Positions 1,201 to 50,850 of a stretch of DNA of 64,000 nt are shown piece by piece. Origin of the DNA: Squalus acanthias (taxonomy: Eukaryota); the NCBI GenBank assembly GCA_030390025.1, contig CM059431.1, positions 100,814,001 through 100,878,000 on the forward strand. The letters are read 5' to 3'. Below the pieces are notes generated by a model. It worked only from the letters and a program-made list of their open reading frames with translations. It ran no database searches and was not told the DNA's origin. Made by a program: the position numbers and the translations under genes. Within the stretch, counting starts at the first letter, position 1; the number at the start of each line of letters is the position of its first letter.

Positions 1201-1536
1201 CAGGTTTTTTTTTTAACAACAATGAACAAGGAAAAATGAATTTGTTCCTTTATATTAAATAAAACTCAGTGATGAAAATAGGGTCATCTACATACTATTT
1301 TTTATTGCAGTTTAAATACAACTTTAATAATTATTAACATAAGAAGTGAATTTTCAAAATGTACTATACAGCTTAAATTCAAACATTAAAGTTTCAGTAA
1401 TGTTAGTCATCCCCTATGGCACTGCTCAAAGAGGAAAAAAATCTTGCTTTCTCTCTCCATGTCACTGCTTCCATCCTTGTCATCCACTCTTGAATTGGAG
1501 CGTTTATTGCCCAGGCACGCAAGTGAGATTGTGGAA

Positions 1537-1935
1537 GTGTCTGGATGAGGAAAATCCGGAGGTAAAGCTGGGGCCGGGGCCAAGGCCAAGTTGCACTCAT
1601 CCTGGGCAGGACTGCAGTTCCCTGTGGACCATGTTCCTGGGAAAGGGGAACTATGCTGAGCGTGTGGGTGTCGGAGCCCCGGTCTTTCTGGCTGCTGCGT
1701 TTGAGTATCTTGATCACTGACATCCTGGAGCTGGCTGGCAACACGGCCCGCAACATCAAGAGGACCCGCAACGCCCCCAGACGCCTGCAGCTGGCCATCC
1801 GCATCGAGGAGATCAACAAGCTGCTGGGACAGGAAACCGTCGTCCAGGGCAGGGTTCTGCCTAATATTCAGGACGAAGAAAAACAGCACAAACAGCAAGT
1901 AAAGTGCCCAAGACTGAATCTGATAACCAAAGGCT
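1537..1935 (+). pseudogene. Replication-dependent histone H2A pseudogene
   Basis: H2A-like segments ([59 protein letters not shown]) spread across frames. The start is GTG, TGA is codon 4, there are frameshifts, and TAA falls near 1901. It is followed by CCAAAGGCT. Confidence 0.9.
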
Positions 1936-1986
1936 ACTTAAGGGGAAAAAATGAGGCACTTAGAAGCACTGAGCTCTCGAGTCGAG

Positions 1987-2714
1987 CATGCCCAAGGGCA
2001 TAGAAAACAGAGCAACCCCATGGCCAAGGGCATAGAAAACAGAGCAATCCCATGGCCAAGGACAGAGAAAACAGAGCAACCCCATGGCCAAGGACAGAGA
2101 AAACAGAGCAACCCCATGGCCAAGGGCATAGAAAACAGAGCAATCCCATGGTCAAGGACAGAGAAAACAGAGCAACCCCATGGCCAAGGGCATAGAAAAC
2201 AGAGCAACCCCATGGCCAAGGGCATAGAAAACAGAGCAACCCCATGCCCAAGGGCATAGAAAACAGAGCAATCCCATGGCCAAGGGCATAGAAAACAGAG
2301 CAACCCCATGGCCAAGGGCATAGAAAACAGAGCAACCCCATGCCCAAGGGCATAGAAAACAGAGCAATCCCATGGCCAAGGGCATAGAAAACAGAGCAAC
2401 CCCATGGCCAAGGGCATAGAAAACAGAGCAACCCCATGGCCAAGGGCATAGAAAACAGAGCAACCCCATGCCCAAGGACAGAGAAAACAGAGCAACCCCA
2501 TGCCCAAGGGCATAGAAAACAGAGCAACCCTATGCCCAAGGACAGAGAAAACAGAGCAACCCCATGCCCAAGGGCATAGAAAACAGAGCAACCCCATGCC
2601 CAAGGGCATAGAAAACAGAGCAACCCTATGCCCAAGGACAGAGAAAACAGAGCAACCCCATGCCCAAGGGCATAGAAAACAGAGCAACCCCATGCCCAAG
2701 GGCATAGAAAACAG
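1987..2714. repeat. Minisatellite, 32-bp unit CATG(G/C)CCAAGG(GCAT/ACAG)AGAAAACAGAGCAA(C/T)CC, ~22.7 copies
   Basis: Direct 32-bp periodicity (CATG at 1987, 2019 ... 2691). Confidence 0.97.
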
Positions 2715-13642: not shown

Positions 13643-13644
13643 TG

Positions 13645-14628
13645 TCTCCACATTCAACGGATCATCCTCCGCCATTTCCGCCACCTCCAACGTGATCCCA
13701 CCACCAAACGTATCTTCCCCTCACCTCCCCTTTCAGCATTCCGTAGGGACCGCTCCCTCCGAGACACCCTAGTCCACTCCTCTATCACCCCCAGCACCCC
13801 TTCCCCTGGCACCTTCCCGTGCAAGCGCAGGAGATGCAACACCTGCCCTTATACATCCCCCCTTCCCACTCTCCAGGGCCCCAAACACCCCTTCCAGGTG
13901 AAACAGCGATTTACTTGTACTTCTTGCAATCTAGTATACTGTATTCGCTGCTCACGATGTGGTCTCCTCTACATTGGGGAGACCAAACGCAGATTGGGTG
14001 ACCGCTTTGCGGAACACCTCCGTTCAGTCCGGAAGGGTGACCCCGAGCTTCCGGTCGCTTGTCATTTTAATTCACCCCTCCACGCTCACTCAGACCTCAC
14101 CGTCCTCGGCTTCTTGCATTGTTCCACGGAAGCGCAGCGTAAGCTCCAGGAACAGCACCTCATCTTCCGTTTAGGCACTTTACAGCCTTCCGGACTCAAT
14201 ATCGAGTTCAACAATTTCAGATCATAACCCCGGCCCCTACCACATATGTATACATTTTATCCACTCCTTTGGTCCGTGCCTTTTTCCTTTTTTTCTCTCT
14301 CTCCCCCCACGGCAGCTGTCTCTGATTCTGCCAGCATTTCACACCTTACCTTTTGTTTCTCAACCTGTCCCATTACCATCTCGTCTTGCCTTGAGCATCT
14401 CTCAATGTCTCTACTCACTAAAGACCATCCCTTTTGTTCTTTTATTCCTCCCCCCAGCCTCCCCCTTGCATTTTTATCTGTTTATTTCTTGCTCTCTCAG
14501 TTCCGACGAAGGGTTTCGACCTGAAACGTTAACTCTCTTTCTCTCTCCATGGATGTTGCCTGGCCTGCTGAGTTTTTCCAGCATTTTCTGTTGTTATTTC
14601 TGATTTCCAGCATCCGCAGTATTTTGCT
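13645..14628 (+). mobile_element. Penelope-like element (Neptune-type) 3' part: Cys-rich linker, GIY-YIG endonuclease and pLTR
   Basis: CKRRRCNTC, NLVYCIRCSRCGLLYIGETKRRLGDRFAEH...PSGLN, stop at 14227. The downstream pLTR has a hammerhead-like motif at 14499-14534. Confidence 0.92.
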
Positions 14629-15227
14629 ATCGTAATAGTGCAGAAGGTGTAGTTGAGGTAGAAGATCAGCCAATATCTTATTGAATGGCGGAGCAGGCTT
14701 GAAGGGCGGAATGGCCTACTCCTGCTCCTATTTCTTACATTCATATGATTATGAGACAGCATTTGACACCAAGCCATATAAGGAGATATTAGGACAGGTG
14801 ACCAAATGCTTGGTCAAAGAGTTAGGTTTTAAGGAGTGTCTTAAAGGAGGAGAGAGTGAGGTGGAGAGGTTTCAGAACTCAGAACAAACTAAGGAACATA
14901 GGAACAGGATGAGGACATTCAGCCCCTCGAGCCTTTCAATTAGATTATGGCTGATCTGTGTCTTAACTCCATTTACCCGCCTTGGTTCCATAACCCTTAA
15001 TACCCTTACCCAACAAAAATCTATCAATCTCAGTTTTGAAATTTTCAATTGACCCCCGGCCTCAATAGCTTTTTGGGGGAGAGAGTTCCAGATTTCCACT
15101 CCCTTTGTGTGAAGAAGTGCTTCCTGACATCACCCCTGAACGACCTGGCTCTAATTTTAAGGTTATGCCCCCTTGTTCTGGACCCTCCCACCAGAGGAAA
15201 TAATTTTTCTCTGTCTACTCTATCAAC

Positions 15228-15425
15228 ACCAGGTTATAGTCCAACAGGTTTATTTGAAATCACAAGCTTTCGGAGCGGCTGCTCCTTCGTCAGGTGAAGT
15301 GAAGAGGAAGGAGCAGCAGCTCCGAAAGCTTGTGATTTCAAATAAAACTGTTGGACTATAACCTGGTGTTGTGCAACTTCTCACTTTTGTCCACCCCAGT
15401 CCAACACCGGCATCTCCGCATCATG
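15228..15425. mobile_element. Foldback Penelope pLTR mini-element with hammerhead motif
   Basis: Inverted arms. TSD TACTCTATCAAC at 15216-15227 and 15426-15437. Confidence 0.85.
15260..15297 (-). ncRNA. Minimal hammerhead ribozyme motif
   Basis: UCAC-CUGACGA-A-GGAGC(AGCC)GCUCC-GAA-AGCU-U-GUGA. Confidence 0.75.
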
Positions 15426-16107
15426 TACTCTATCAACGCCTTTAATCGTCTTAAACACCTCAATTAGATCACCACAAGGGTCAAATCTGTAATCCTTCTG
15501 GTCTGTATAACTCAAAATGACACTTGGGCCCCAATTTTAACTCCAGGTGGATTCCGAGTTAAAATTACAGTCGGGTCTCAATGATGTCATCGGGCCGCAA
15601 CATGCATATGTAAAGTAGGACCCTGCCGGCTCCGGGCGCCTGTCCTTGCTGCCCGCTCAGGAGAAAATGTTAAAATTGCGGATGTTGCGATCATGGTGGC
15701 TTTCGGACAGGGAAGAGCCAGGGTGATTTTAACTGCCCGCCCGCCAGGTTTCTGCTGAGCGAGTAGGGTTAGGTGTCATACCTACTGAAGAACTGTGGAA
15801 CCAGAGCAGGGGCATTAAGTCACAATGCTGTCGAGAGATGGGGGAGAACACCAATATACAGAACTCAAAAGTAGCCATTCTATGAGTTTAAAACCAACTT
15901 CAATTCAGCAGTTCTGAAGAGAAGGGGGGAACACTGCTACTGTTCAAGGCGTTAAGTAACATCTCCCTCAACTGTCTCACAGCAGTCTCCTGCGATCCAG
16001 AAGTTGCACCTTTTTCATATTCTGCCTTCACAGAAGTGCACCAAGTGAGGTTAAAAAAAAATCACAATTGTTTGTTTCATTTCATCGTAATACACACTGT
16101 TTAAATA

Positions 16108-18681: not shown

Positions 18682-19096
18682 TAAAGCCACTATTATATTT
18701 ATTTACAAATTGTGATATGAAGCACTAGAAGCAGCAAACACTAAATGTACAATACATTTATAAAAACACATTGGGGCAGAAATTCGGCTGTTGTCGGGTG
18801 AGTACGCACTGTGTACTCACCCGTGGACGGAACGAAAGTGCCGGTTTCTTGCATGCACTGCACATGCGCGGGAAACCGGCACTTCCGTTCCCCTGAGGAA
18901 AGGGGTTCAGAGGTCGAACGCGCACGCCGGAGGGCCAGCGCGTTCGCCTTGCACTTCGGGTTTTTTTTTTTACAAGTTCCTCCGTGAGGGTAAACACGGA
19001 GAAGATACACTTTTAAAAAGGATGCGCAAGGCCTTCTTTTAACAAAAATGAGAAGTCGCACAACACCAGGTTATAGTCCAACAGATTTATTTAAAA

Positions 19097-19134
19097 TTAC
19101 AAGCTTTCGGAGCTATCGCCCCTTCTTCAGGTAA
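19097..19134 (-). ncRNA. Minimal hammerhead ribozyme motif
   Basis: UUAC-CUGAAGA-A-GGGGC(GAUA)GCUCC-GAA-AGCU-U-GUAA on the minus strand. Confidence 0.75.
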
Positions 19135-19171
19135 AGTTACAATGGAACTTTACCTGAATCCCATTGTAACT

Positions 19172-19209
19172 TTACCTGAAGAAGGGGCGATAGCTCCGAA
19201 AGCTTGTAA
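19172..19209 (+). ncRNA. Minimal hammerhead ribozyme motif
   Basis: TTAC-CTGAAGA-A-GGGGC-GATA-GCTCC-GAA-AGCT-T-GTAA. Confidence 0.75.
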
Positions 19210-21144
19210 TTTTAAATAAATCTGTTGGACTATAACCTGGTGTTGTGCGACTTCTCATTTTTGTCCACCCCAGTCCAACGCCGGCATCTCCACATCATTC
19301 TTTTAACAAGGTAAGTGTTGATTTTATTAAAATTTTAACATTTTTTTCCACAGATTTATCTTTTTTAATTACTTTAAAGAAAGGTAAGTTTAGTTTTAGC
19401 CCCGTTAAAAAATGTAATTAATTTTTTCAAAAATTAAAATTTTTGTTTAAAAGAGTTAATTAATGTAATTTATAGTTATTTTAAAAATGTGATTTTTAAA
19501 AAAAAGTATTTGTAGTTTAGGGATGTTTTGGGGCCGATCTGTATTCATAGATTTGACAGGTCTCCCTGTCAAATCTATGAATGAAAGATGGTCTGCTGCC
19601 ATTGGCTCTCCATGGCCCACGTGATCCCAGGGGACGCATCGCACTAACTACGCCCCTGGGATACACGAGCACTGCACGCCGGCAGCTGCAGGAGGCCCAG
19701 GACCCGAAGTTCCCGTGGGCCCAGAGGTCAACGGCAGGCGCAGTAGGTAGGTGCGCGCGCGATCCTTGCACCCGCGGGAAGCCAGGGAGCTGAATTTCTG
19801 GCCCATAGAGAATATCCATAATTAGCCGTGAGGAAAAGTGACTACTGATCTGGTTCTGGTAAATTAATCTGTTCATTTGACAAGCAAAAATCGACGCCTT
19901 CCACTGTGACTTCTACCCGTCTCCCCTCCAGCTTCCAGCTTCAAATCTCACTGAGATCTTCACAATCTGCTCTGGCCAACAGCTTTCAAAAGAACTTGTC
20001 TGCTGTCTCAACGCTCCTACTTTAACCGGAGGTATCAAATGCAACACTTCTGGGAACTCTTAGGTGTTGGGCTTCCCCCACATCCTGCACCACCCCCCCC
20101 CCCCCACCGCCCCAAAAGAAAATCAAAGAATACTTCATGCATAAATCCAATTAAAAATGAGATACTTCACAAAGTATATATCTTAATTGATAGAACGTCG
20201 ACCAAGATATAAACAATTCGCGAGTCTGTGCTGAATGTACCAGTCACAACAATGGAATACACCACATTATTTTGATCAAAAGAATCGCCTACTAATTAAA
20301 AACAAACCACTGCGATCTTAGATCAAAGACATCATTTGAACATCAAAGTCACAGTGACAAACAACTCAGACTGTCACAGATACCTTACATGCTAATACAA
20401 AATCCTAAACGTAAAAATAAACCACTAACGGCCCCAGCAATCTCAAATCAAGAGCCACAATCAGTCAGGCCCACTGTCACCATCCCCCCACAGGACTGGC
20501 GTTGCCAACTCTGGATGGACATATTCCAGGAGGCTTTACCACATGTCCTCCCTCCTCCAGCAGCCTTTTCTCCCATCCCCACTGTATTTATAACTAATAA
20601 ACGGAAGTGTTCACACAAAATGAAAAAAAAACCCACTTTTTTTTAATGCCGCTGTGATTTTTCTCCCGGGGTTGCTCGCAGCAGTGTCCATAGAATCGTC
20701 GAATCTTACAGCACAGAAGGAGGCCATTCGCCCCGTCTTGCCTGTGCCAGCTCTTTGAAAGAGCTCTCCAATTAGTCCCACACCCCATCTTTTTCCCCCG
20801 AACCCTGCAAATTAGTTCTCTTCAAGTATATGTCCAATTGCCTTTTGAAAGTTCCTACAAAATCTGATTCCACCACCCTTTCAGGTAGCGTGTCCCAGAT
20901 CTTAACAACTCATTGTGTGAAACATTTCTCATTTCCCCTCTAGTCCTTTTGCCAATTATCTTAAATCTCTGACCTCCGGTTCCCAACCCACTTGCCAGAG
21001 GAAACAGTATCTCCCTACTTGCGCTATCAAAACCCTTCATAATTTTGAATACCTCTATTAGGTCTCCCTTTAACCTTCTCTGCACTAAGGAGAACAAACC
21101 CAGCTTCTCCAGTCTCTACACATAACTGAACTCCCTTATTCCTG

Positions 21145-21758
21145 ATGTGGAGATGCCGGCGTTGGACTGGGGTGGACAAAAATGAGAAGTCGCACAACAC
21201 CAGGTTATAGTCCAACAGATTTATTTAATTTTACAAGCTTTCGGAGCCGTTCGCTCCTTCCTCAGGTAAGTTAGCAGTGAGAGAATCTCCCAGAATTCAC
21301 AATTTAAACACAGACAAAATCTATTCAAATCTTTCCCTACATCAAAGACACACTAAGAGCACAGCCAAGACAATGAGATGTGTCCCAGGGGGTCCAACGT
21401 GTCAAACCACCTGCTGGCTGCATATCCTGTCAATTTGTGTTGGTTCTTGTGTTAGTCTTTTTAAAAAAAAAACACCTGGGAAGACCGGCCATGATGTCAA
21501 GTCACGTTCTGTATCGTGACATGAACCCGATATCGCGATTGAGGCCATCCTCATGAGTGCGGAACTTGGCTATCAGTTTCTGCTCTATGATTTTGCGCTG
21601 TCGTGTATCCCGAAGGCCGCCTTGGAGAACGCTTACCCGCAGATCCGAGGCTGAATGCCCCTGGCTGCTGAAGTGTTCCCCGACTGGGAGGCAACCCTCC
21701 TGCCTGGCGATTGTTGCGCGGTGTCCGTTCATACGTTGTCTCAGTGTCTGCATGGTCT
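21145..21758 (-). mobile_element. 5'-truncated Penelope-like element: GIY-YIG C-terminus and pLTR
   Basis: ORF 21502-21753 TLRQRMNGHR...PVGEHFS..GH...EQKLIAKFRTHEDGLN. TSD CTTATTCCTG at 21135-21144 and 21759-21768. The pLTR is the same family as the foldback mini-elements. Confidence 0.9.
21231..21269 (-). ncRNA. Minimal hammerhead ribozyme motif in Penelope pLTR
   Basis: UUAC-CUGAGGA-A-GGAGC(GAACG)GCUCC-GAA-AGCU-U-GUAA. Confidence 0.75.
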
Positions 21759-22888
21759 CTTATTCCTGGTATCATCCTGGTAAACCTTCTCTGTACACCC
21801 TCCAAGGCCTTGACATCTTTCTTAAAGTGTGGTGACCAGAATTGTACACAATACTCCAGCTGAGGCCTAACCAGTGATTTGTAATGGTTTAGCATGACTT
21901 CCTGGTTTTTGTACAAAATGCCCCCATTTACAAAGTCAAGTATCCCATACGCTTTCTTAACTGCCTTATCAACTTGCCCTGCTACCTTCCAGGATTTGTG
22001 AATATGGACCCCCGGGTCCCTCAGCTCCTGCTCCCGCCTCAAAATAGCCCTACTTAGATTATACTGCCTCTCCATGTTGTTTCTCCCAAAGTGCATCACT
22101 TCACACTTATCCGCATTAAATTGCATCTGCCACGTGTCTGCCCATTTCACCAGTCTGTCTATGTCCTCCTAAGTCTGCTACTATCCTGCTCACTATTTAC
22201 TACGTTGCCAAATTTTGTATCATCCACAAACTTCAAAATTGTATTCCCTGTACCCAAGTCCAGGTCATTTATATATAACTAGAAAAGCAATGGTCCTATT
22301 ACCGGTCCCTGGGGGACCCCACTGCATCCTTCTCTCCAGTCGGGAAAACATCCGTTCACCACTCCTCTCTGCCTCCTATCTCTTAGCCTCTTTCCCTTTA
22401 ATACCATGTGCTTCTATTTTCTGTTACGTGGTACTTTATCAAATCCCTTTTGAAAAAACTAAGCCAAAGAAGCAGTAGTTAATAGCTTGGTCAAAGAGGT
22501 GGGTCCAGGAGATTAATCTTTAATTCCTGACAACTCCAGGACAATCCTGGAGGTTTGGCAACCCTACATGGGACAAAAAGGAAACAGCATTCCAACTGAT
22601 TACTCTAACACTCTGGAATTCCCTCCCTAAAACTCTCCGTCTCTCTACCTCTTTCTCCTCCTTTAAGATCTTCCTTAAATTCCACCTTTTTGACCAAGCA
22701 TCTGGTCACCCCTCCTAAGGAGGTAGGTTTTAAGGAGTGTCTTAAAGGAGGAGAGGTTTAGGGAGGGAATTCCAGAGGTTAGAGCCTACGCAGCTGAACG
22801 CACGGCCGCCAACGGTAGGGAGAATGGAAATCAGGGATGAGCAAGAGGCCACAATTGGAGGAGCTCAGAGATCTCGGAGGGTTGTAGA

Positions 22889-29565: not shown

Positions 29566-30293
29566 GGCCCAAAAATTAGTATCAGTACGCGAGAGTACGC
29601 ACTGTGTACTCTCGCGTATTCTGTCTCCAATTGCCGGTTTCCAGCATGCACTGAAAACCGGCACTTGGTGATTTCAAAAGGGGGCGGTTCCTAGGTGAAC
29701 CGCGTGCGCGCTACAGGCTGCGCGCACGCAGTGCACTTAGTGCTTTGAACGCGCAGGTAAGCATGGAAGATTTTGCACATAAAGAAAGGAGGCGTAAGAC
29801 CCTCTTTTAACAAGGTAAGTAGTTAATTAAGTATTATTTTGAATTTTTTTCAACAGGTATATCTTTTTTAGAGACTTTAAAGAAAGGTAAGTTTATTTTT
29901 AGAACTTTTAAAAAGATTTTAAATTTTTTCAAAAATTTAATTTTTTGTTTAAAGTGGTTAATTTATTTAACTATACTTATTTTATTAATGTGAGGGGTTT
30001 TATTTTTAATTGAGGTTTAGCTGTTCTTTTGGGGGGGTATAGATTCATAGCTTTGACAGCACTTGCTGTGAAAACTATGAATGAAAGATGGTGTGCTGCC
30101 ATTGGCTCAAACTTAATCACGTGATCCCACAGCTCGCACGAATTAACTGCGTCTGTGGGATACGCACACACTGCACAGCTGCAGTCTTGAAACTAAAGTT
30201 CGTGCGAGCTCGGAAGGAAAAGGCAGGCGCGCAGTGAGATATCGCGGGGAAGCCTTACCCCCGCAGGAATGCTCCGTCTTTAATTTCTGGGCC
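29566..30293. mobile_element. PIF/Harbinger-type MITE inserted into a CR1 3' region
   Basis: TIRs GGCCCAAAAATT / AATTTCTGGGCC. 3-bp TSD AAT at 29563-29565 and 30294-30296. CR1 continues on both sides. Confidence 0.85.
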
Positions 30294-30296
30294 AAT

Positions 30297-30985
30297 AAAA
30301 ATCTATCCAACTCAGTCTTGAAAACTTCAATTGTCCCCCAGCATCTACAGCCCTTTGGAGACAGTTCTAGATTTCTACTGCCTTTTGTGCGAAGCAGTGC
30401 TTCCTGATTTCACTCCTGAACGGCCTGGCTCTAATTTTAAGGTGATGCCCCCTTGTTCTGGACTCCCCCACCAGAGAAAATAGTTTCTCTCTCTCTACCC
30501 TATCAACTCCTTCAATCATCTTAAACACCTCTATTAGATCACCCCTCACTCTTCTATACTCAAATGAATACAAGCCACGTTTATGCAACCTGTCCTCACC
30601 AGTTACCCCTTTTAGCCCCGGGATCTTTCTGGTGAAACTGCACTGCACCCCCTCCACGCCCAAGATATCCTTCCTGAGGTGCGGTGCCCAGAACTGAACA
30701 CAGTTACTCCAGATGCAGTCTAACCAGGCTTTTATACAACTGAAGCATAATTTCTTCCCCTTCTGTATCTCAGACCCCTTGAGATAAAGGCCAACATTCC
30801 ATGAGCCTGTTTGTACCTGTCCACTAGTTTTTGTGATTTATGTACGTGGACACCCAAATCTCTCTGCTCCTCCACAGTTCCGAGTTTTTCATCATTTAGA
30901 AAATACTCTGATTTGTCTTTCTTGGCTCCAAAGTGGCTGACCTCACACTTCCCTACATTGAACTGCATCTGCCACAGTTTTACTT
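30297..30985 (-). mobile_element. CR1 3' part (tail at ~29440-29562)
   Basis: ORFs 30732-30989 and 30367-30663 with CR1 C-terminal motifs. Confidence 0.88.
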
Positions 30986-33496: not shown

Positions 33497-34245
33497 AAAG
33501 ACTTGAATTTCTATAGCGCCTTTCACGACCTCAGGACGTCCCAAAGCGCTCAGAGGCGAAAGTACTTTTGAAGTGCAGCCACTGTTGTAATGTAGGAAAC
33601 ACAGCAGCCAGTTTGTGCACAGAGCAAGCTCCCACAAACAGCAATGTGACAATGACCAATTAATCTGTTTTTTTAGTGATATTGATTGAGGGTTAAATAT
33701 TGTCCAGGACACCGGGGAGAACTTCCTTGAAATAGTGGCACTGGGAGCTTTTACATCCACCTGAGAGGACAGACGGGGCCTCGGTTAAACGTCTCATCCA
33801 GAAAGACGGCACCTCCGACAGTGCAGCGCTCCCTCAGTACCGCCCCTCCGACAGTGCGGCACTCCCTCAGTACCGCCCCTCCGACAGTGCAGCGCTCCCT
33901 CAGTACTGCCCCTCCGACAGTGCGGCACTCCCTCAGTACTGCCCCTCCGGTGCGGCGCTCCCTCAGTACTGCCCCTACGACAGTGCGGCGCTCCCTCAGT
34001 ACTGCCCCTCCGACAGTGCGGCGCTCCCTCAGTACTGCCCCTCCGACAGTGCGGCACTCCCTCAGTACCGCCCCTCCGACAGTGCAGCGCTCCCTCAGTA
34101 CTGCCCCTCCGACAGTGCGGCACTCCCTCAGTACCGCACTGGAGTGTCAACCTAGATTTTGTGCTCAGGTCTCTGGAGCGGGACTTGAACCCACAACTTT
34201 CTGATTCAGAGGCGAGAGAGTGCTGCCCACTGAGCCGCAGCTGAC
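33497..34245 (-). mobile_element. Deu-domain tRNA SINE with internal minisatellite expansion
   Basis: Reverse complement of the 16108-16538 SINE, with head at ~34180-34245. Confidence 0.85.
33811..34139. repeat. 33-bp tandem repeat (CCCCTCCGACAGTGC(A/G)GC(G/A)CTCCCTCAGTAC(C/T)G), ~10 copies, inside the SINE
   Basis: Direct periodicity. The unit equals a single-copy segment of the SINE body. Confidence 0.92.
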
Positions 34246-34580: not shown

Positions 34581-35087
34581 GGAGGGAGAGAGAGAGAGAG
34601 GGAGAGAAAAGGAGAGAGAGAGAGAGGGGGAGAGAGAGGGAGAGNNNNNNNNNNNNNNNNNNNNNNNNNNNNNNNNNNNNNNNNNNNNNNNNNNNNNNNN
34701 NNNNNNNNNNNNNNNNNNNNNNNNNNNNNNNNNNNNNNNNNNNNNNNNNNNNNNNNNNNNNNNNNNNNNNNNNNNNNNNNNNNNNNNNNNNNNNNNNNNN
34801 NNNNNNNNNNNNNNNNNNNNNNNNNNNNNNNNNNNNNNNNNNNNAGAGAGAGTGTGAGTGAGAGTGAGTGTGAGAGAGTGTGAGTGTGTGTGTGAGAGTG
34901 AGAGTGTGTGAGTGAGTGTGTGTGAGTGTGAGTGAGAGAGAGTGTGAGTGAGTGTGTGTGAGAGTGTGAGTGAGTGTGAGTGAGAGAGAGAGTGTGAGTG
35001 AGAGAGAGTGTGAGTGTGAGTGAGTGTGAGTGAGAGTGAGAGTTTGAGTGAGAGAGAGTGTGAGTGTGAGTGTGTGTGAGTGAGAGT
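34581..35087. repeat. Compound (GA)n/(GT)n microsatellite containing an assembly gap
   Basis: GA and GAGTGT runs on both sides of the N run. Confidence 0.95.
34645..34844. other. Assembly gap (200 N)
   Basis: Run of N. Confidence 1.
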
Positions 35088-35746
35088 ACGAGGGATCAAT
35101 TACAATTACTGAACAGGTGGTTTATAAAACCGGGGAAAGTATTTCCACCGAAACGAGAGCTGAGACCCAGACAGCAGCAAAGCTTGTGAAATGCCGACCG
35201 CCCGCTCTCACTTTTTGCAGCCTGTGCCGACCCCGGTCACTCTGAGCTCAGCTGTTTGGGGTCAGTGGCAAAATCCATTTGGCCCGCTACCTTGCTGAAA
35301 CAAAACAGCGTCTCTGTGTTGGGCGCGGGCTGTCTGTGTGTTTCCGGGCGATGCCCAGAAGATGCGAGACTCATGTCGGAGCTTTCTCCCGGGGCTCCCT
35401 CGCAAGCTCGCTCTGCCTGGGCAGGCACTGGAACTCGGGGTGTTCATCGATAAAGTGCGACTGTGGGAGTCGAGAATTCCCTAATCGTTTGCACTGTTAG
35501 TAGATAGAGCAGGTGGTTCTTAAATTCGAATGGCTATTTTTTTTTAATCTTAAGAGTGAGAGTAATCTGCAACGGATGGTTGACACTCACCTTTCGAGCC
35601 ACAGGTATGCAGAATTCTGAGAGCTCAGAAACTCTCCCCCTCCTTTCCATATGACACCCTGTCTGAGGACAGGTGACCGCTTCCAGTATTTCCAATGTGA
35701 GAAGTCGCACTACACCAGGTTATAGTCCAACAGCTTTATTTGAAAT

Positions 35747-35781
35747 CACAAGCTTTCGGAGCGCTGCTCCTTCATCAGATG
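35747..35781 (-). ncRNA. Minimal hammerhead ribozyme motif (short stem I)
   Basis: CAU-CUGAUGA-A-GGAGC(AGC)GCUCC-GAA-AGCU-U-GUG. Confidence 0.6.
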
Positions 35782-35796
35782 CTCCTTCACCTGACT

Positions 35797-35834
35797 TCAC
35801 CTGACGAAGGAGCAGCCGCTCCGAAAGCTTGTGA
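35797..35834 (+). ncRNA. Minimal hammerhead ribozyme motif
   Basis: TCAC-CTGACGA-A-GGAGC-AGCC-GCTCC-GAA-AGCT-T-GTGA. Confidence 0.75.
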
Positions 35835-36706
35835 TTTCAAATAAAGCTGTTGGACTATAACCTGGTGTTGTGCGACTTCTCACATTTGTCCACCCAGTCC
35901 AACACCGGCATCTCCACATCACAGTATTTCCAATGATTTATGGCAATCCACATCGGGGCAATAGAGGTGGAAAGGTGGCGTTTTACAGCGGAATTGGAAA
36001 CAGTTCCAGGTTGAAATATATGAGATTAGCAGAGAAATTCGGTTGGAAGACAATGATTGTTCCAGTTATCACTGGGGCACATCCTGCATTTATGCATAAA
36101 TCGTTGGGCTCCTTTCTATTTGACATGGCAGGGAAGCAAATTCTAAAGGTGTGCAGGAACTGATCAAAGTTTGTGTGTATCTGTTACTAGAAATAGCGCG
36201 CTTGCAACCAGGCTGATTTTAATCTGCATGGAGTTATTAACACAAATGGCAATATTTGAGACTTTCACACATTAACAGCGTTTGTCCTTCCAACATTTCC
36301 ACAGATTTGCATCTGCAGTTTAAACAAAAAAGCCTTACGACCCAAACCCCGCGAACGGTGTAAAATTAATACTTTGCATAAATTCATAATTTAATTTATA
36401 ATACGATCAAGGGGCTGTTGTAAAGTCCAATCATTCAATTAGATAAAAGATTGACAATGGCGGGGGAGGGGGGGACTGCACTGCTCGCTGTACTGAGCGA
36501 AATGGTATCTTTCTGAATGGATTTAGCAGTAGGAATAGACAGTCACCAAAGCAACTCTTCCCCATTCTGTATCATTGCTCCTGCTCTCTTCACATAATGA
36601 CACCTGTGGTGGTTTTACAATTAATTTTGAAGGGCCCAATTACACTTTATGTTGATAGAATTTAAATCCGAAATCAAATCTCACTGTTTATTATGGCAGT
36701 AATTAA

Positions 36707-50444: not shown

Positions 50445-50850
50445 ATTTAGGAACCTAGGAACAGGAGGAGGACATTGAGCCTCTCAAGCCTGTTCCGCCA
50501 TTCAATTAGATCACAGCTGATCTGTATCTTAACTCCATTTACCCACCTTGGTTCCGTAACCCTTAATACCCTTACCCAACAAAAATCGTTTTGGGGGAGA
50601 GTGTTCCAGATTTCCACCACCCTTTGTGTGAAGAAGTGCTTCCTGACATCACCCCTGAACGGCCTGGCTCTAATTTTAAGGTGATGCCCCCTTGTTCTGG
50701 ACTCCCCCCCCACCAGAGGAAGTAGTTTCTCTCTCTCTACCCTATCGAATCCTTTAATCATCTTAAACACCTCAATTAGATCACCCCTTAATCTTCTATA
50801 TTCAAGAGAATACAAGACTAGTCTATGCAACCTGTCCTCATAATTTAACC
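50445..50850 (-). mobile_element. CR1 3' fragment
   Basis: YEDRLHRLVLYSLEYRRLRGDLIEVFK...FFTQRVVEIWNTLP. Confidence 0.88.

What the first reader, a model, noticed from the sequence alone, without database searches (positions are those of the whole stretch)
19034..19309. Perfect 104-bp palindrome with two back-to-back hammerhead ribozyme motifs: ORF-less Penelope-derived mobile unit
Seen: arms 19042-19145 and 19161-19264 appear exactly complementary around a 15-nt spacer that itself recopies the arm end, with a 12-bp TSD. The related MITE at ~29800 shows the empty site (CTTTTAACAAGGTAAG). Each arm has a full minimal hammerhead, so either strand's transcript contains one. Across copies, stem I covaries (TTAC/GTAA here and at 21.2 kb, TCAC/GTGA at 15.3 and 35.8 kb) and the stem II loop varies freely (GATA, AGCC, GAACG, AGC) while the core is fixed, which suggests selection on the RNA fold. 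Known: PLE pLTRs carry minimal hammerheads and PLE insertions often have inverted 5' ends. Inference: three such ~210-255 bp insertions in 21 kb suggest an abundant, recently active, ribozyme-bearing non-coding retroelement class in this shark.
Basis: partly seen in the sequence, partly recalled or inferred. Interest (0 to 1): 0.7.

Follow-up and report, generated by a model that had tools for sequence, protein, structure and literature searches.

The report
Truncated Penelope retrotransposon hairpin insertion
The perfect hairpin is the broken-off end of an ordinary protein-coding Penelope-type jumping gene, copied in twice head-to-head when it landed, not a new self-contained ribozyme element.

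Summary
The sequence description is right: exact 104-bp arms, 12-bp target duplication, empty-site paralogue and a minimal type I hammerhead in each arm. The reading as an ORF-less mobile class is not supported. The copy at 21.2 kb is really 614 bp long and joins the same hammerhead end to the endonuclease C-terminus of a Neptune-type Penelope-like element (PLE), 93% identical to a shark RT-containing protein. The insert has the published PLE layout: inverted pLTR, direct pLTR, 33-nt tail on one side, TSD. The three palindromic copies have three different centres, so the mirror half is most likely built at each insertion. In a read-through transcript of either strand the hammerhead is predicted to be locked in the hairpin (about 69-71 kcal/mol). 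Covariation is one subfamily-level change. Remaining lead: all 3 inverted arms overlap the TSD by 4 nt, and all 6 arm ends cluster at the hammerhead's 5' edge, which bears on how PLE inversions form. This scan noted the same pattern in two other genomes.

The parts
19034..19045 (.). Left target-site duplication TTCTTTTAACAA; its last 4 nt (ACAA) also belong to the inverted arm
19042..19145 (-). Inverted, tail-less copy of the PLE 3' end (pLTR), 104 nt
19097..19134 (-). Minimal type I hammerhead motif in the inverted arm (C3 at 19130)
   Evidence: mirror of 19172-19209
19146..19160 (.). Inversion junction: 13-nt re-copy of 19168-19180, plus TC
19161..19264 (+). Direct, 5'-truncated PLE 3' end (pLTR), starting 15 nt upstream of hammerhead C3
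19172..19209 (+). Minimal type I hammerhead: stem I TTAC/GTAA, CUGAAGA, extra A, stem II 19184-19188/19193-19197, GAAA-GC-UU; no stem III; palindromic AAGCUU; predicted cut 19205/19206
   Evidence: features as in PMC4209133
19265..19297 (+). 33-nt PLE 'tail', present on one side only, ending at CACATCA next to a putative ATG
   Evidence: PMC8557442 and PMC3846280
19298..19309 (.). Right target-site duplication
21145..21758 (-). Copy D: 614-bp 5'-truncated PLE of a sister subfamily (ORF end, 3' UTR, hammerhead, tail), no inversion, 10-bp TSD 21135-21144/21759-21768, inside a CR1-type LINE; 86 nt identical to the tailed arm of the finding
21502..21759 (-). C-terminal 85 codons plus stop of the PLE GIY-YIG endonuclease; stop lies 237 nt upstream of hammerhead C3
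15216..15437 (+). Copy B: palindromic insertion, 12-bp TSD, inverted arm lacks 54-58 nt of the 3' end, own junction, arms differ at 3 of 68
35684..35935 (+). Copy C: palindromic insertion, 14-bp TSD, inverted arm lacks 35-39 nt, own junction, arms differ at 3 of 88 plus 1 gap
29803..29820 (+). Empty-site paralogue of the target in a related host repeat

Best explanation
It is a 252-bp, severely 5'-truncated insertion of an endonuclease-containing Penelope-like retrotransposon of the Neptune type, in the known layout TSD - inverted pLTR - direct pLTR - tail - TSD. SHOWN: the layout; the link of this end to a PLE coding sequence; a different centre in each copy; 4-nt overlap between inverted arm and TSD in 3 of 3; both arms span the hammerhead cut site, so the template RNA was uncut there. 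INFERRED: the PLE protein nicks the target 12 bp apart. One 3' end primes reverse transcription at the outer start site, giving the tailed arm. The other anneals by 4 nt about 35 nt further in and primes a second cDNA, giving the tail-less inverted arm. Both stop about 15 nt past the hammerhead and are joined head-to-head by end joining, leaving the 13-nt re-copy. I put this two-primer route at about 0.5 and fold-back of a single cDNA at about 0.35. The hammerheads are passengers from the parent's pLTR, where they would work as dimers through AAGCUU; in the palindrome they are predicted to be folded shut, so the copy is most likely dead on arrival.
For:: copy D continues 490 bp past the hammerhead into an ORF end and has its own TSD in a CR1; that 85-aa fragment hits 38 of 71 candidate proteins, best 93% to a 643-aa shark protein that carries RVT_1 (E 5e-9); its relatives have DKG, a CX4CxxC linker and LIRCxxxCxxAWYIG, the Neptune/Nematis diagnostics in PMC8557442; 15,375, 18,989, 2,968 and 3,521 contigs from 4 runs lie on copy D, with depth in all 30 bins including the coding part; 31 contigs (X1) and 4 (X6) run on upstream with letters that translate to KFCPGAWYIG; 113 contigs (X1) leave the element at the tail end into unrelated flanks (agreement 0.38); papers describe an inverted 5'-truncated copy, a 30-40-bp tail on one end, 8-10-bp TSDs and an inverted pLTR 37 bp shorter than the direct one; three palindromes, three different junctions; overlap 4, 4, 4 nt; chance 0.017 per junction; hammerhead fold costs 69-71 kcal/mol in the whole element, 0.8 in the single arm.
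Against: The direct parent of copy A was not seen: A and D differ upstream of stem I and in loop II (131 identities in 137 aligned columns plus 5 gap positions), so the coding link is through a sister subfamily. All 6 arm ends of the 3 palindromes fall within about 20 nt upstream to 5 nt downstream of C3, which random truncation would not predict and which needs an extra assumption (an RNA 5' end or an RT stop there). Pfam found no family in the 85-aa fragment itself (it lacks the GIY and YIG motifs). In vitro work on an Anolis PLE found RT starting without homology to the cut DNA (PMC11167929), unlike the 4-nt overlap here. Only 4 copies were examined, and no strand-change joint was among the 15 of 29 joints shown.
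Confidence: 0.8

Rival explanations
1. A dedicated short non-coding pLTR RNA (about 150 nt, 5' end just upstream of hammerhead stem I) from a non-autonomous, SINE-like master is the template. The PLE protein mobilises it in trans and the palindrome is still built at insertion.
For: All 6 arm ends cluster at the hammerhead's 5' edge. Summed contig depth over the last 85 nt is higher than over the coding part (X1: 1.8-7.2 million versus 0.6-2.1 million), though the tool warns this is no copy number and inverted arms count twice. Non-autonomous PLE derivatives are known (PMC8557442; bioRxiv 10.64898/2026.07.22.740005).
Against: The same cluster follows if RT starts in the 5' pLTR of a full-length RNA and runs off its 5' end, or stalls at the ribozyme. 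Copy D shows the same end on a coding template. B and C have sequence upstream of stem I that differs from A, so at least two such masters would be needed.
Confidence: 0.13
2. Alternative for the inversion step only (probability given the PLE-insertion reading): one cDNA folds back at its 3' end, copies itself, and anneals by 4 nt to the other target end.
For: A's arms are 104 of 104 identical, including variants that B, C and D lack. The minus strand can pair across the junction, leaving a 7-nt loop. PMC3846280 reads junction palindromes as self-priming. The 4-nt overlap fits this route too.
Against: The arms of B differ at 3 sites, all 3 among the 12 of 67 columns that vary between the other copies; in C, 2 of 2 differences in the scored columns are of that kind, but 2 more just outside them are not. 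That leans to two templates. Four of those five sites are in or next to a CpG and may simply mutate fast.
Confidence: 0.35
3. One reading: the palindrome itself is a mobile, ORF-less unit whose two hammerheads are functional and selected, cutting transcripts of either strand.
For: Both arms of A hold a complete motif; three palindromes lie within 21 kb; stems are paired in 98% of cells.
Against: Three copies have three centres, and one arm each in B and C lacks hammerhead parts. The ribozyme fold has probability 0.00 in whole-element folds of A (both strands), B and C. Cutting at the two sites would not release a unit that includes the tail or both ends. No tandem array of this unit in 14.5-36.5 kb. 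Published minimal hammerheads did not cut as monomers (PMC4209133).
Confidence: 0.05
4. The perfect palindrome is a sequencing or assembly artefact.
For: 100% identical arms; no reads were laid across this locus.
Against: Exact TSD, one-sided tail, empty-site paralogue, and two older imperfect palindromes of the same plan in the window.
Confidence: 0.02

Closest known systems
EN+ PLE insertions with inverted pLTR and tail (PMC3846280 Fig. 2a-c, passages read; PMC8557442 Fig. 2 legend and text, passages read)
   Same: Head-to-head inverted 5'-truncated copy, tail of 30-40 bp on one end only, inverted copy shorter by the tail (37 bp there; 33-37 and 35-39 here in A and C), short TSD.
   Different: Here nothing but the terminal 105-140 nt was copied, so the whole insert is a hairpin; TSDs are 10-14 bp against 8-10 bp in the rotifer examples; copy B lacks 54-58 nt.
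Minimal hammerheads of metazoan PLE pLTRs (PMC4209133, parts 1-2 of 4 read)
   Same: [quoted passage not shown]
   Different: Helix II is 5 bp (7-8 bp in Schistosoma); the two cores here are 46 nt apart; no shark example was found in the 2 supplement files searched (1 file and all figures not seen).
Neptune-clade PLEs (diagnostics from PMC8557442)
   Same: C-terminal GIY-YIG with two cysteines between the motifs, CX2-5CxxC linker and DKG motif in the close protein relatives.
   Different: No RT tree was built, so Neptune versus Nematis is not formally settled; the family name, if any, is unknown.
Non-LTR retrozymes (bioRxiv 10.64898/2026.07.22.740005, parts 1-3 of 5 read)
   Same: Non-coding, pLTR-derived, type I hammerhead; reported in the one chondrichthyan sampled.
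   Different: Retrozymes are head-to-tail tandem units bounded by the ribozyme; these are head-to-head, carry a TSD and tail, and the unit is not bounded by the cut site.
L1 twin priming and dual priming (PMC2837659, passages read)
   Same: TSD-bounded inverted fragments with microhomology where the second primer anneals.
   Different: In L1 twin priming the two fragments come from different parts of one RNA. Here both copy the same stretch, so they need two pLTRs on one RNA, two RNAs (the hypothetical 'dual priming'), or fold-back.
Anolis Poseidon PAc in vitro (PMC11167929, parts 1-2 of 4 read)
   Same: Two internal RT start sites define the tail; both strands are cut and extended; uncut RNA is the main template; AT-rich targets.
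   Different: PAc starts lie 111-118 nt into the ORF and lack target homology; here the tail ends next to a putative ATG and the inner junction has 4-nt homology.

Membership tests
EN+ Penelope-like element insertion | End sequence linked to a PLE RT/GIY-YIG ORF | tested here: met
   Via sister copy D, 86 nt identical to the tailed arm; not shown for A's own parent
EN+ Penelope-like element insertion | Minimal hammerhead in the pLTR | tested here: met
EN+ Penelope-like element insertion | 30-40-bp tail on one end only | tested here: met
   33-37 nt in A, 35-39 in C; 54-58 in B falls outside the range
EN+ Penelope-like element insertion | Inverted 5'-truncated copy, head-to-head, within a variable-length TSD | tested here: met
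   3 of 4 copies inverted; TSD 12, 12, 14, 10 bp
EN+ Penelope-like element insertion | Full-length pLTR-ORF-pLTR parent in the same genome | not testable with these tools
   No genome held; contigs show only that copies continue upstream
Neptune clade | CX2-5CxxC linker and CCHH-type cysteines, C-terminal EN | tested here: met
   In relatives P0002, P0005, P0016, P0022 (66-92% identical to the window fragment); the window fragment is cut before these motifs
Neptune clade | RT phylogeny groups with Neptune rather than Nematis | not tested
   No reference PLE set on hand
Minimal type I hammerhead | Core C3U4G5A6N7G8A9, G12A13A14A15.1, U16.1-H17, helices I and II, extra nt at 9/10.1, G10.1-C11.1, palindromic 15.2-16.2 | tested here: met
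Minimal type I hammerhead | Self-cleavage (as dimer or protein-assisted) | not testable with these tools
   Only a predicted AAGCUU duplex between two copies, -6.5 kcal/mol
Non-LTR retrozyme | Head-to-tail tandem units, each with a hammerhead | tested here: not met
   No such array in 14.5-36.5 kb; the arms are head-to-head
Non-autonomous family moving as a fixed palindromic unit | Independent copies share the same internal junction and ends | tested here: not met
   0 of 3 pairs among A, B, C share a junction; n is small and A belongs to another subfamily than B and C
MITE (class II) | Terminal inverted repeats at both ends and a fixed TSD length | tested here: not met
   33 nt lie outside the inverted repeat on one side; TSD 10-14 bp

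The most novel reading that the evidence does not exclude
Shark Neptune-type PLEs make an abundant short pLTR RNA whose 5' end lies just upstream of the hammerhead. A PLE protein dimer primes two separate RNA molecules from the two ends of one staggered cut, so each insertion is a hairpin whose arms can come from different master copies. That would be direct genomic evidence for dual priming, so far only hypothesised for L1, and would explain how PLE inverted ends form, with many natural events to count in shark assemblies.
Probability: 0.15. Interest if true: 0.55.

Novelty: new member of a known kind. Interest (0 to 1): 0.2.

Why it matters
As a thing, little: it is a stump of a known retrotransposon class in a known insertion layout. 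Its use is as material. How PLEs make inverted ends and tails is stated as open in PMC8557442 and PMC3846280, and short young hairpin insertions record both priming junctions and the centre in 250 bp. The 4-nt overlap at the tail-less end (3 of 3), the clustering of arm ends at the hammerhead and the arm-to-arm differences make a genome-wide test of two-primer versus fold-back models cheap. It also warns motif scans: opposite-strand hammerhead pairs in such hairpins are probably unfoldable and should not be counted as active ribozymes.

Tried and rejected
No whole genome is held for this window, so copy number and junction sharing could not be counted. Rfam at gathering score: 0 matches. Exact pattern scans for the conserved pLTR stretch: 0 loci in viral contigs, metagenome contigs and GTDB genomes; none is an animal-genome collection, so this says little. 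Pfam on the 85-aa fragment: 0 families. Earlier-finding look-ups by sequence and by place: nothing. Laying contigs used 4 of the 20 runs listed, on copy D rather than on the palindrome; it showed 15 of 29 joints, none a strand change, so the genome-wide spread of inversion centres was not obtained; its skip joints between the CR1 flanks can come from CR1 paralogues and do not show polymorphism; run X8 is only guessed to be RNA, so expression is not shown; depths are not copy numbers. Covariation as evidence of selection on the palindromes: rejected (controls 29/500 to 480/500, and the rows include both arms of the same copies). Paper searches: 'Neptune + Penelope + elasmobranch' 0 papers; 'Penelope + twin priming + inverted' 2 papers, seen as listings only and not on this subject; searches listed no paper on this shark family. 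The library lacks most subscription papers and Repbase/Dfam were not available, so the family may already be named. One supplement file of PMC4209133 was not searchable, its figures were not seen, and the bioRxiv supplementary tables (retrozyme consensus per species) were not read; they may bear on novelty.

Full report
Observation. The arms 19042-19145 and 19161-19264 are exact reverse complements over 104 nt and cannot be extended. They are the best of 18 inverted pairs within 400 nt in the window, followed by two related pairs at 35.7 kb and 15.2 kb. The insert is bounded by TTCTTTTAACAA at 19034-19045 and 19298-19309. With the insert removed, the flanks align to a related repeat near 29.8 kb that has the site once (118 identities in 145 columns). 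Each arm holds CUGAAGA-A-stem II-GAAA-GC-UU with a 4-bp stem I; H17 is at 19205. Rfam reports nothing at gathering score. The description is confirmed.

The family in the window. BLAST finds four copies: A (the finding, 252 bp), B (15228-15425, 198 bp), C (35698-35921, 224 bp) and D. TSDs are 12, 12, 14 and 10 bp. Its minus strand ends an ORF, ETMQTLRQRMNGH...GLNRDIGFMSRYRT-stop, 237 nt upstream of the hammerhead. The last 86 nt of A's tailed arm are identical to D; upstream of that they differ in loop II and before stem I, so they are sister subfamilies.

What the parent is. The 85-aa fragment has no Pfam hit by itself but matches 38 of 71 candidate longer proteins, the best at 93% to a 643-aa Heptranchias perlo protein, with further hits in Scyliorhinus, Mustelus and Chiloscyllium. 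That protein and an 881-aa relative carry RVT_1. The alignment shows DKG, YIDD, a CX4CxxC linker and LIRCxxxCxxAWYIG just before the fragment, which PMC8557442 gives as marks of Neptune or Nematis PLEs (passages). Public contigs agree: 15,375, 18,989, 2,968 and 3,521 contigs of runs X1, X4, X8, X6 (4 of 20 runs listed) lie on D with depth in all 30 bins; 31 contigs of X1 and 4 of X6 run on past D's 5' end with letters that translate to KFCPGAWYIG; 113 contigs of X1 leave at the tail end into unrelated flanks (24 of 1,062 loose-end rows were shown). So the end belongs to an abundant coding PLE family in sharks. The species of the window was not determined.

The layout is published. PMC8557442 describes heavy 5' truncation, an inverted truncated copy next to the 5' end and a 30-40-bp tail at one end (passages). 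PMC3846280 describes an inverted pLTR 37 bp shorter than the direct one, a 31-bp tail, 8-10-bp TSDs and palindromes at the inverted junction (passages). PMC11167929 shows in vitro that two internal RT start sites define the tail, that both strands are cut and extended, and that uncut RNA is the main template (parts 1-2 of 4). Here the inverted arm lacks 33-37 nt in A, 35-39 in C and 54-58 in B. PMC4209133 lists the minimal-hammerhead traits seen here and already mentions motif pairs on opposite strands 100-700 bp apart (parts 1-2 of 4).

The palindrome is most likely not the mobile unit. A, B and C have three different centres, and one arm each in B and C lacks parts of the ribozyme. With three copies from two subfamilies this is suggestive, not a census. 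On either strand of A the antisense arm comes first. Predicted pair probabilities for stems I and II are 0.00 in whole-element folds of A (both strands), B and C; forcing the hammerhead costs 68.8 and 70.6 kcal/mol in A, against 0.8 for the single arm, where the stems form at 0.78-0.98. Covariation is thin: 1 of 9 pairs changes on both sides, once, between subfamilies (253 of 500 shuffles match that count, 29 of 500 match the paired fraction). In the contigs, the variants shown within D's hammerhead fall on loop II, N7 and stem I (the outer pair, and one insertion in a single contig), none on the fixed core (40 substitution rows shown, 18 not). That fits conservation in parent elements and says nothing about the hairpin copies.

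How it formed. Shown: all arms run past the cut site, so the template was not cut there; the tail-less arm overlaps the TSD by exactly 4 nt in A, B and C (ACAA, CAAC, AATG), against 0.017 expected per random junction; at the tailed end the overlap is 0-2 nt as read. Inferred: a staggered cut gives two 3' ends; one primes at the outer start, the other anneals about 35 nt further in; the two cDNAs are joined head-to-head. This resembles L1 twin or dual priming (PMC2837659, passages), except that both arms copy the same stretch, which needs the two pLTRs of one RNA or two RNAs. The rival is fold-back of one cDNA, which fits A's identical arms and the 7-nt loop possible on the minus strand. Arm-to-arm differences lean the other way: in B 3 of 3 lie among the 12 of 67 columns that vary in other copies; in C 2 of 2 in the scored columns do, but two more just outside do not, and most of these sites touch a CpG. 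I give two primers about 0.5 and fold-back about 0.35. Unexplained: all six arm ends stop within about 20 nt upstream to 5 nt downstream of C3. That could mark the RNA's 5' end, an RT stop, or a short non-autonomous master RNA, the most novel reading left open.

Novelty and limits. It works like, and meets the tested features of, an EN+ PLE insertion; it fails the tandem criterion for retrozymes and the terminal-repeat criterion for MITEs. No genome was available; pattern scans of viral, metagenome and prokaryote collections were empty. My paper searches listed no description of this shark family, but Repbase, Dfam, most subscription papers, one supplement file of PMC4209133 and the bioRxiv supplements were not seen. 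Two earlier notes of this scan on other genomes reach a similar reading; I had recorded mine before seeing them, and they are not independent support. Verdict: real, ordinary in kind, a new member of a known class; interest 0.2.

Noticed in passing
window 13643-14640 (+): 3' fragment of a second, distant Neptune-type PLE family (GIY-YIG, Pfam E 9e-5; 38% identical to the copy D fragment), followed by a hammerhead-like stretch near 14504 with a changed core (CCGACGA).
   Followed up: partly
window 18773-19804: The insertion sits in a MITE-like host repeat with ends GGGGCAGAAATT / AATTTCTGGCCC and several internal palindromes; a 75% identical relative lies at about 29.6-30.2 kb.
   Followed up: partly
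window 15420-15425, 19292-19298, 21143-21148, 35916-35921: The tail ends at CATCA in A, C, D and at CATCATG in B; loose-end consensus at D's tail end continues as ATGA. This may be the ORF start codon, which would put the outer RT start at the ATG.
   Followed up: partly
one search hits P0003, P0011, P0017, P0020, P0028, P0033: The PLE C-terminal fragment appears inside annotated isoforms of unrelated shark genes (XRCC5, PPP1R12A-like, FAM210B, septin 5a, follistatin-related 5, IQCK): either exonised copies or annotation run-on into PLE insertions.
   Followed up: no
window 15216-15437 and 21135-21768: Copies B and D both interrupt LINE-like repeats whose paralogues in the window (30292-30543, 50457-50785) run through B's site.
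   Followed up: partly
window 1343-2003 (+): Two frames resemble a decayed histone H2A sequence (recognised from memory in the translations; not searched).
   Followed up: no
window 33812-34134 and about 34645-34845: A 33-bp unit in 9.9 tandem copies; nearby a run of N between GA-rich repeats marks an assembly gap.
   Followed up: no
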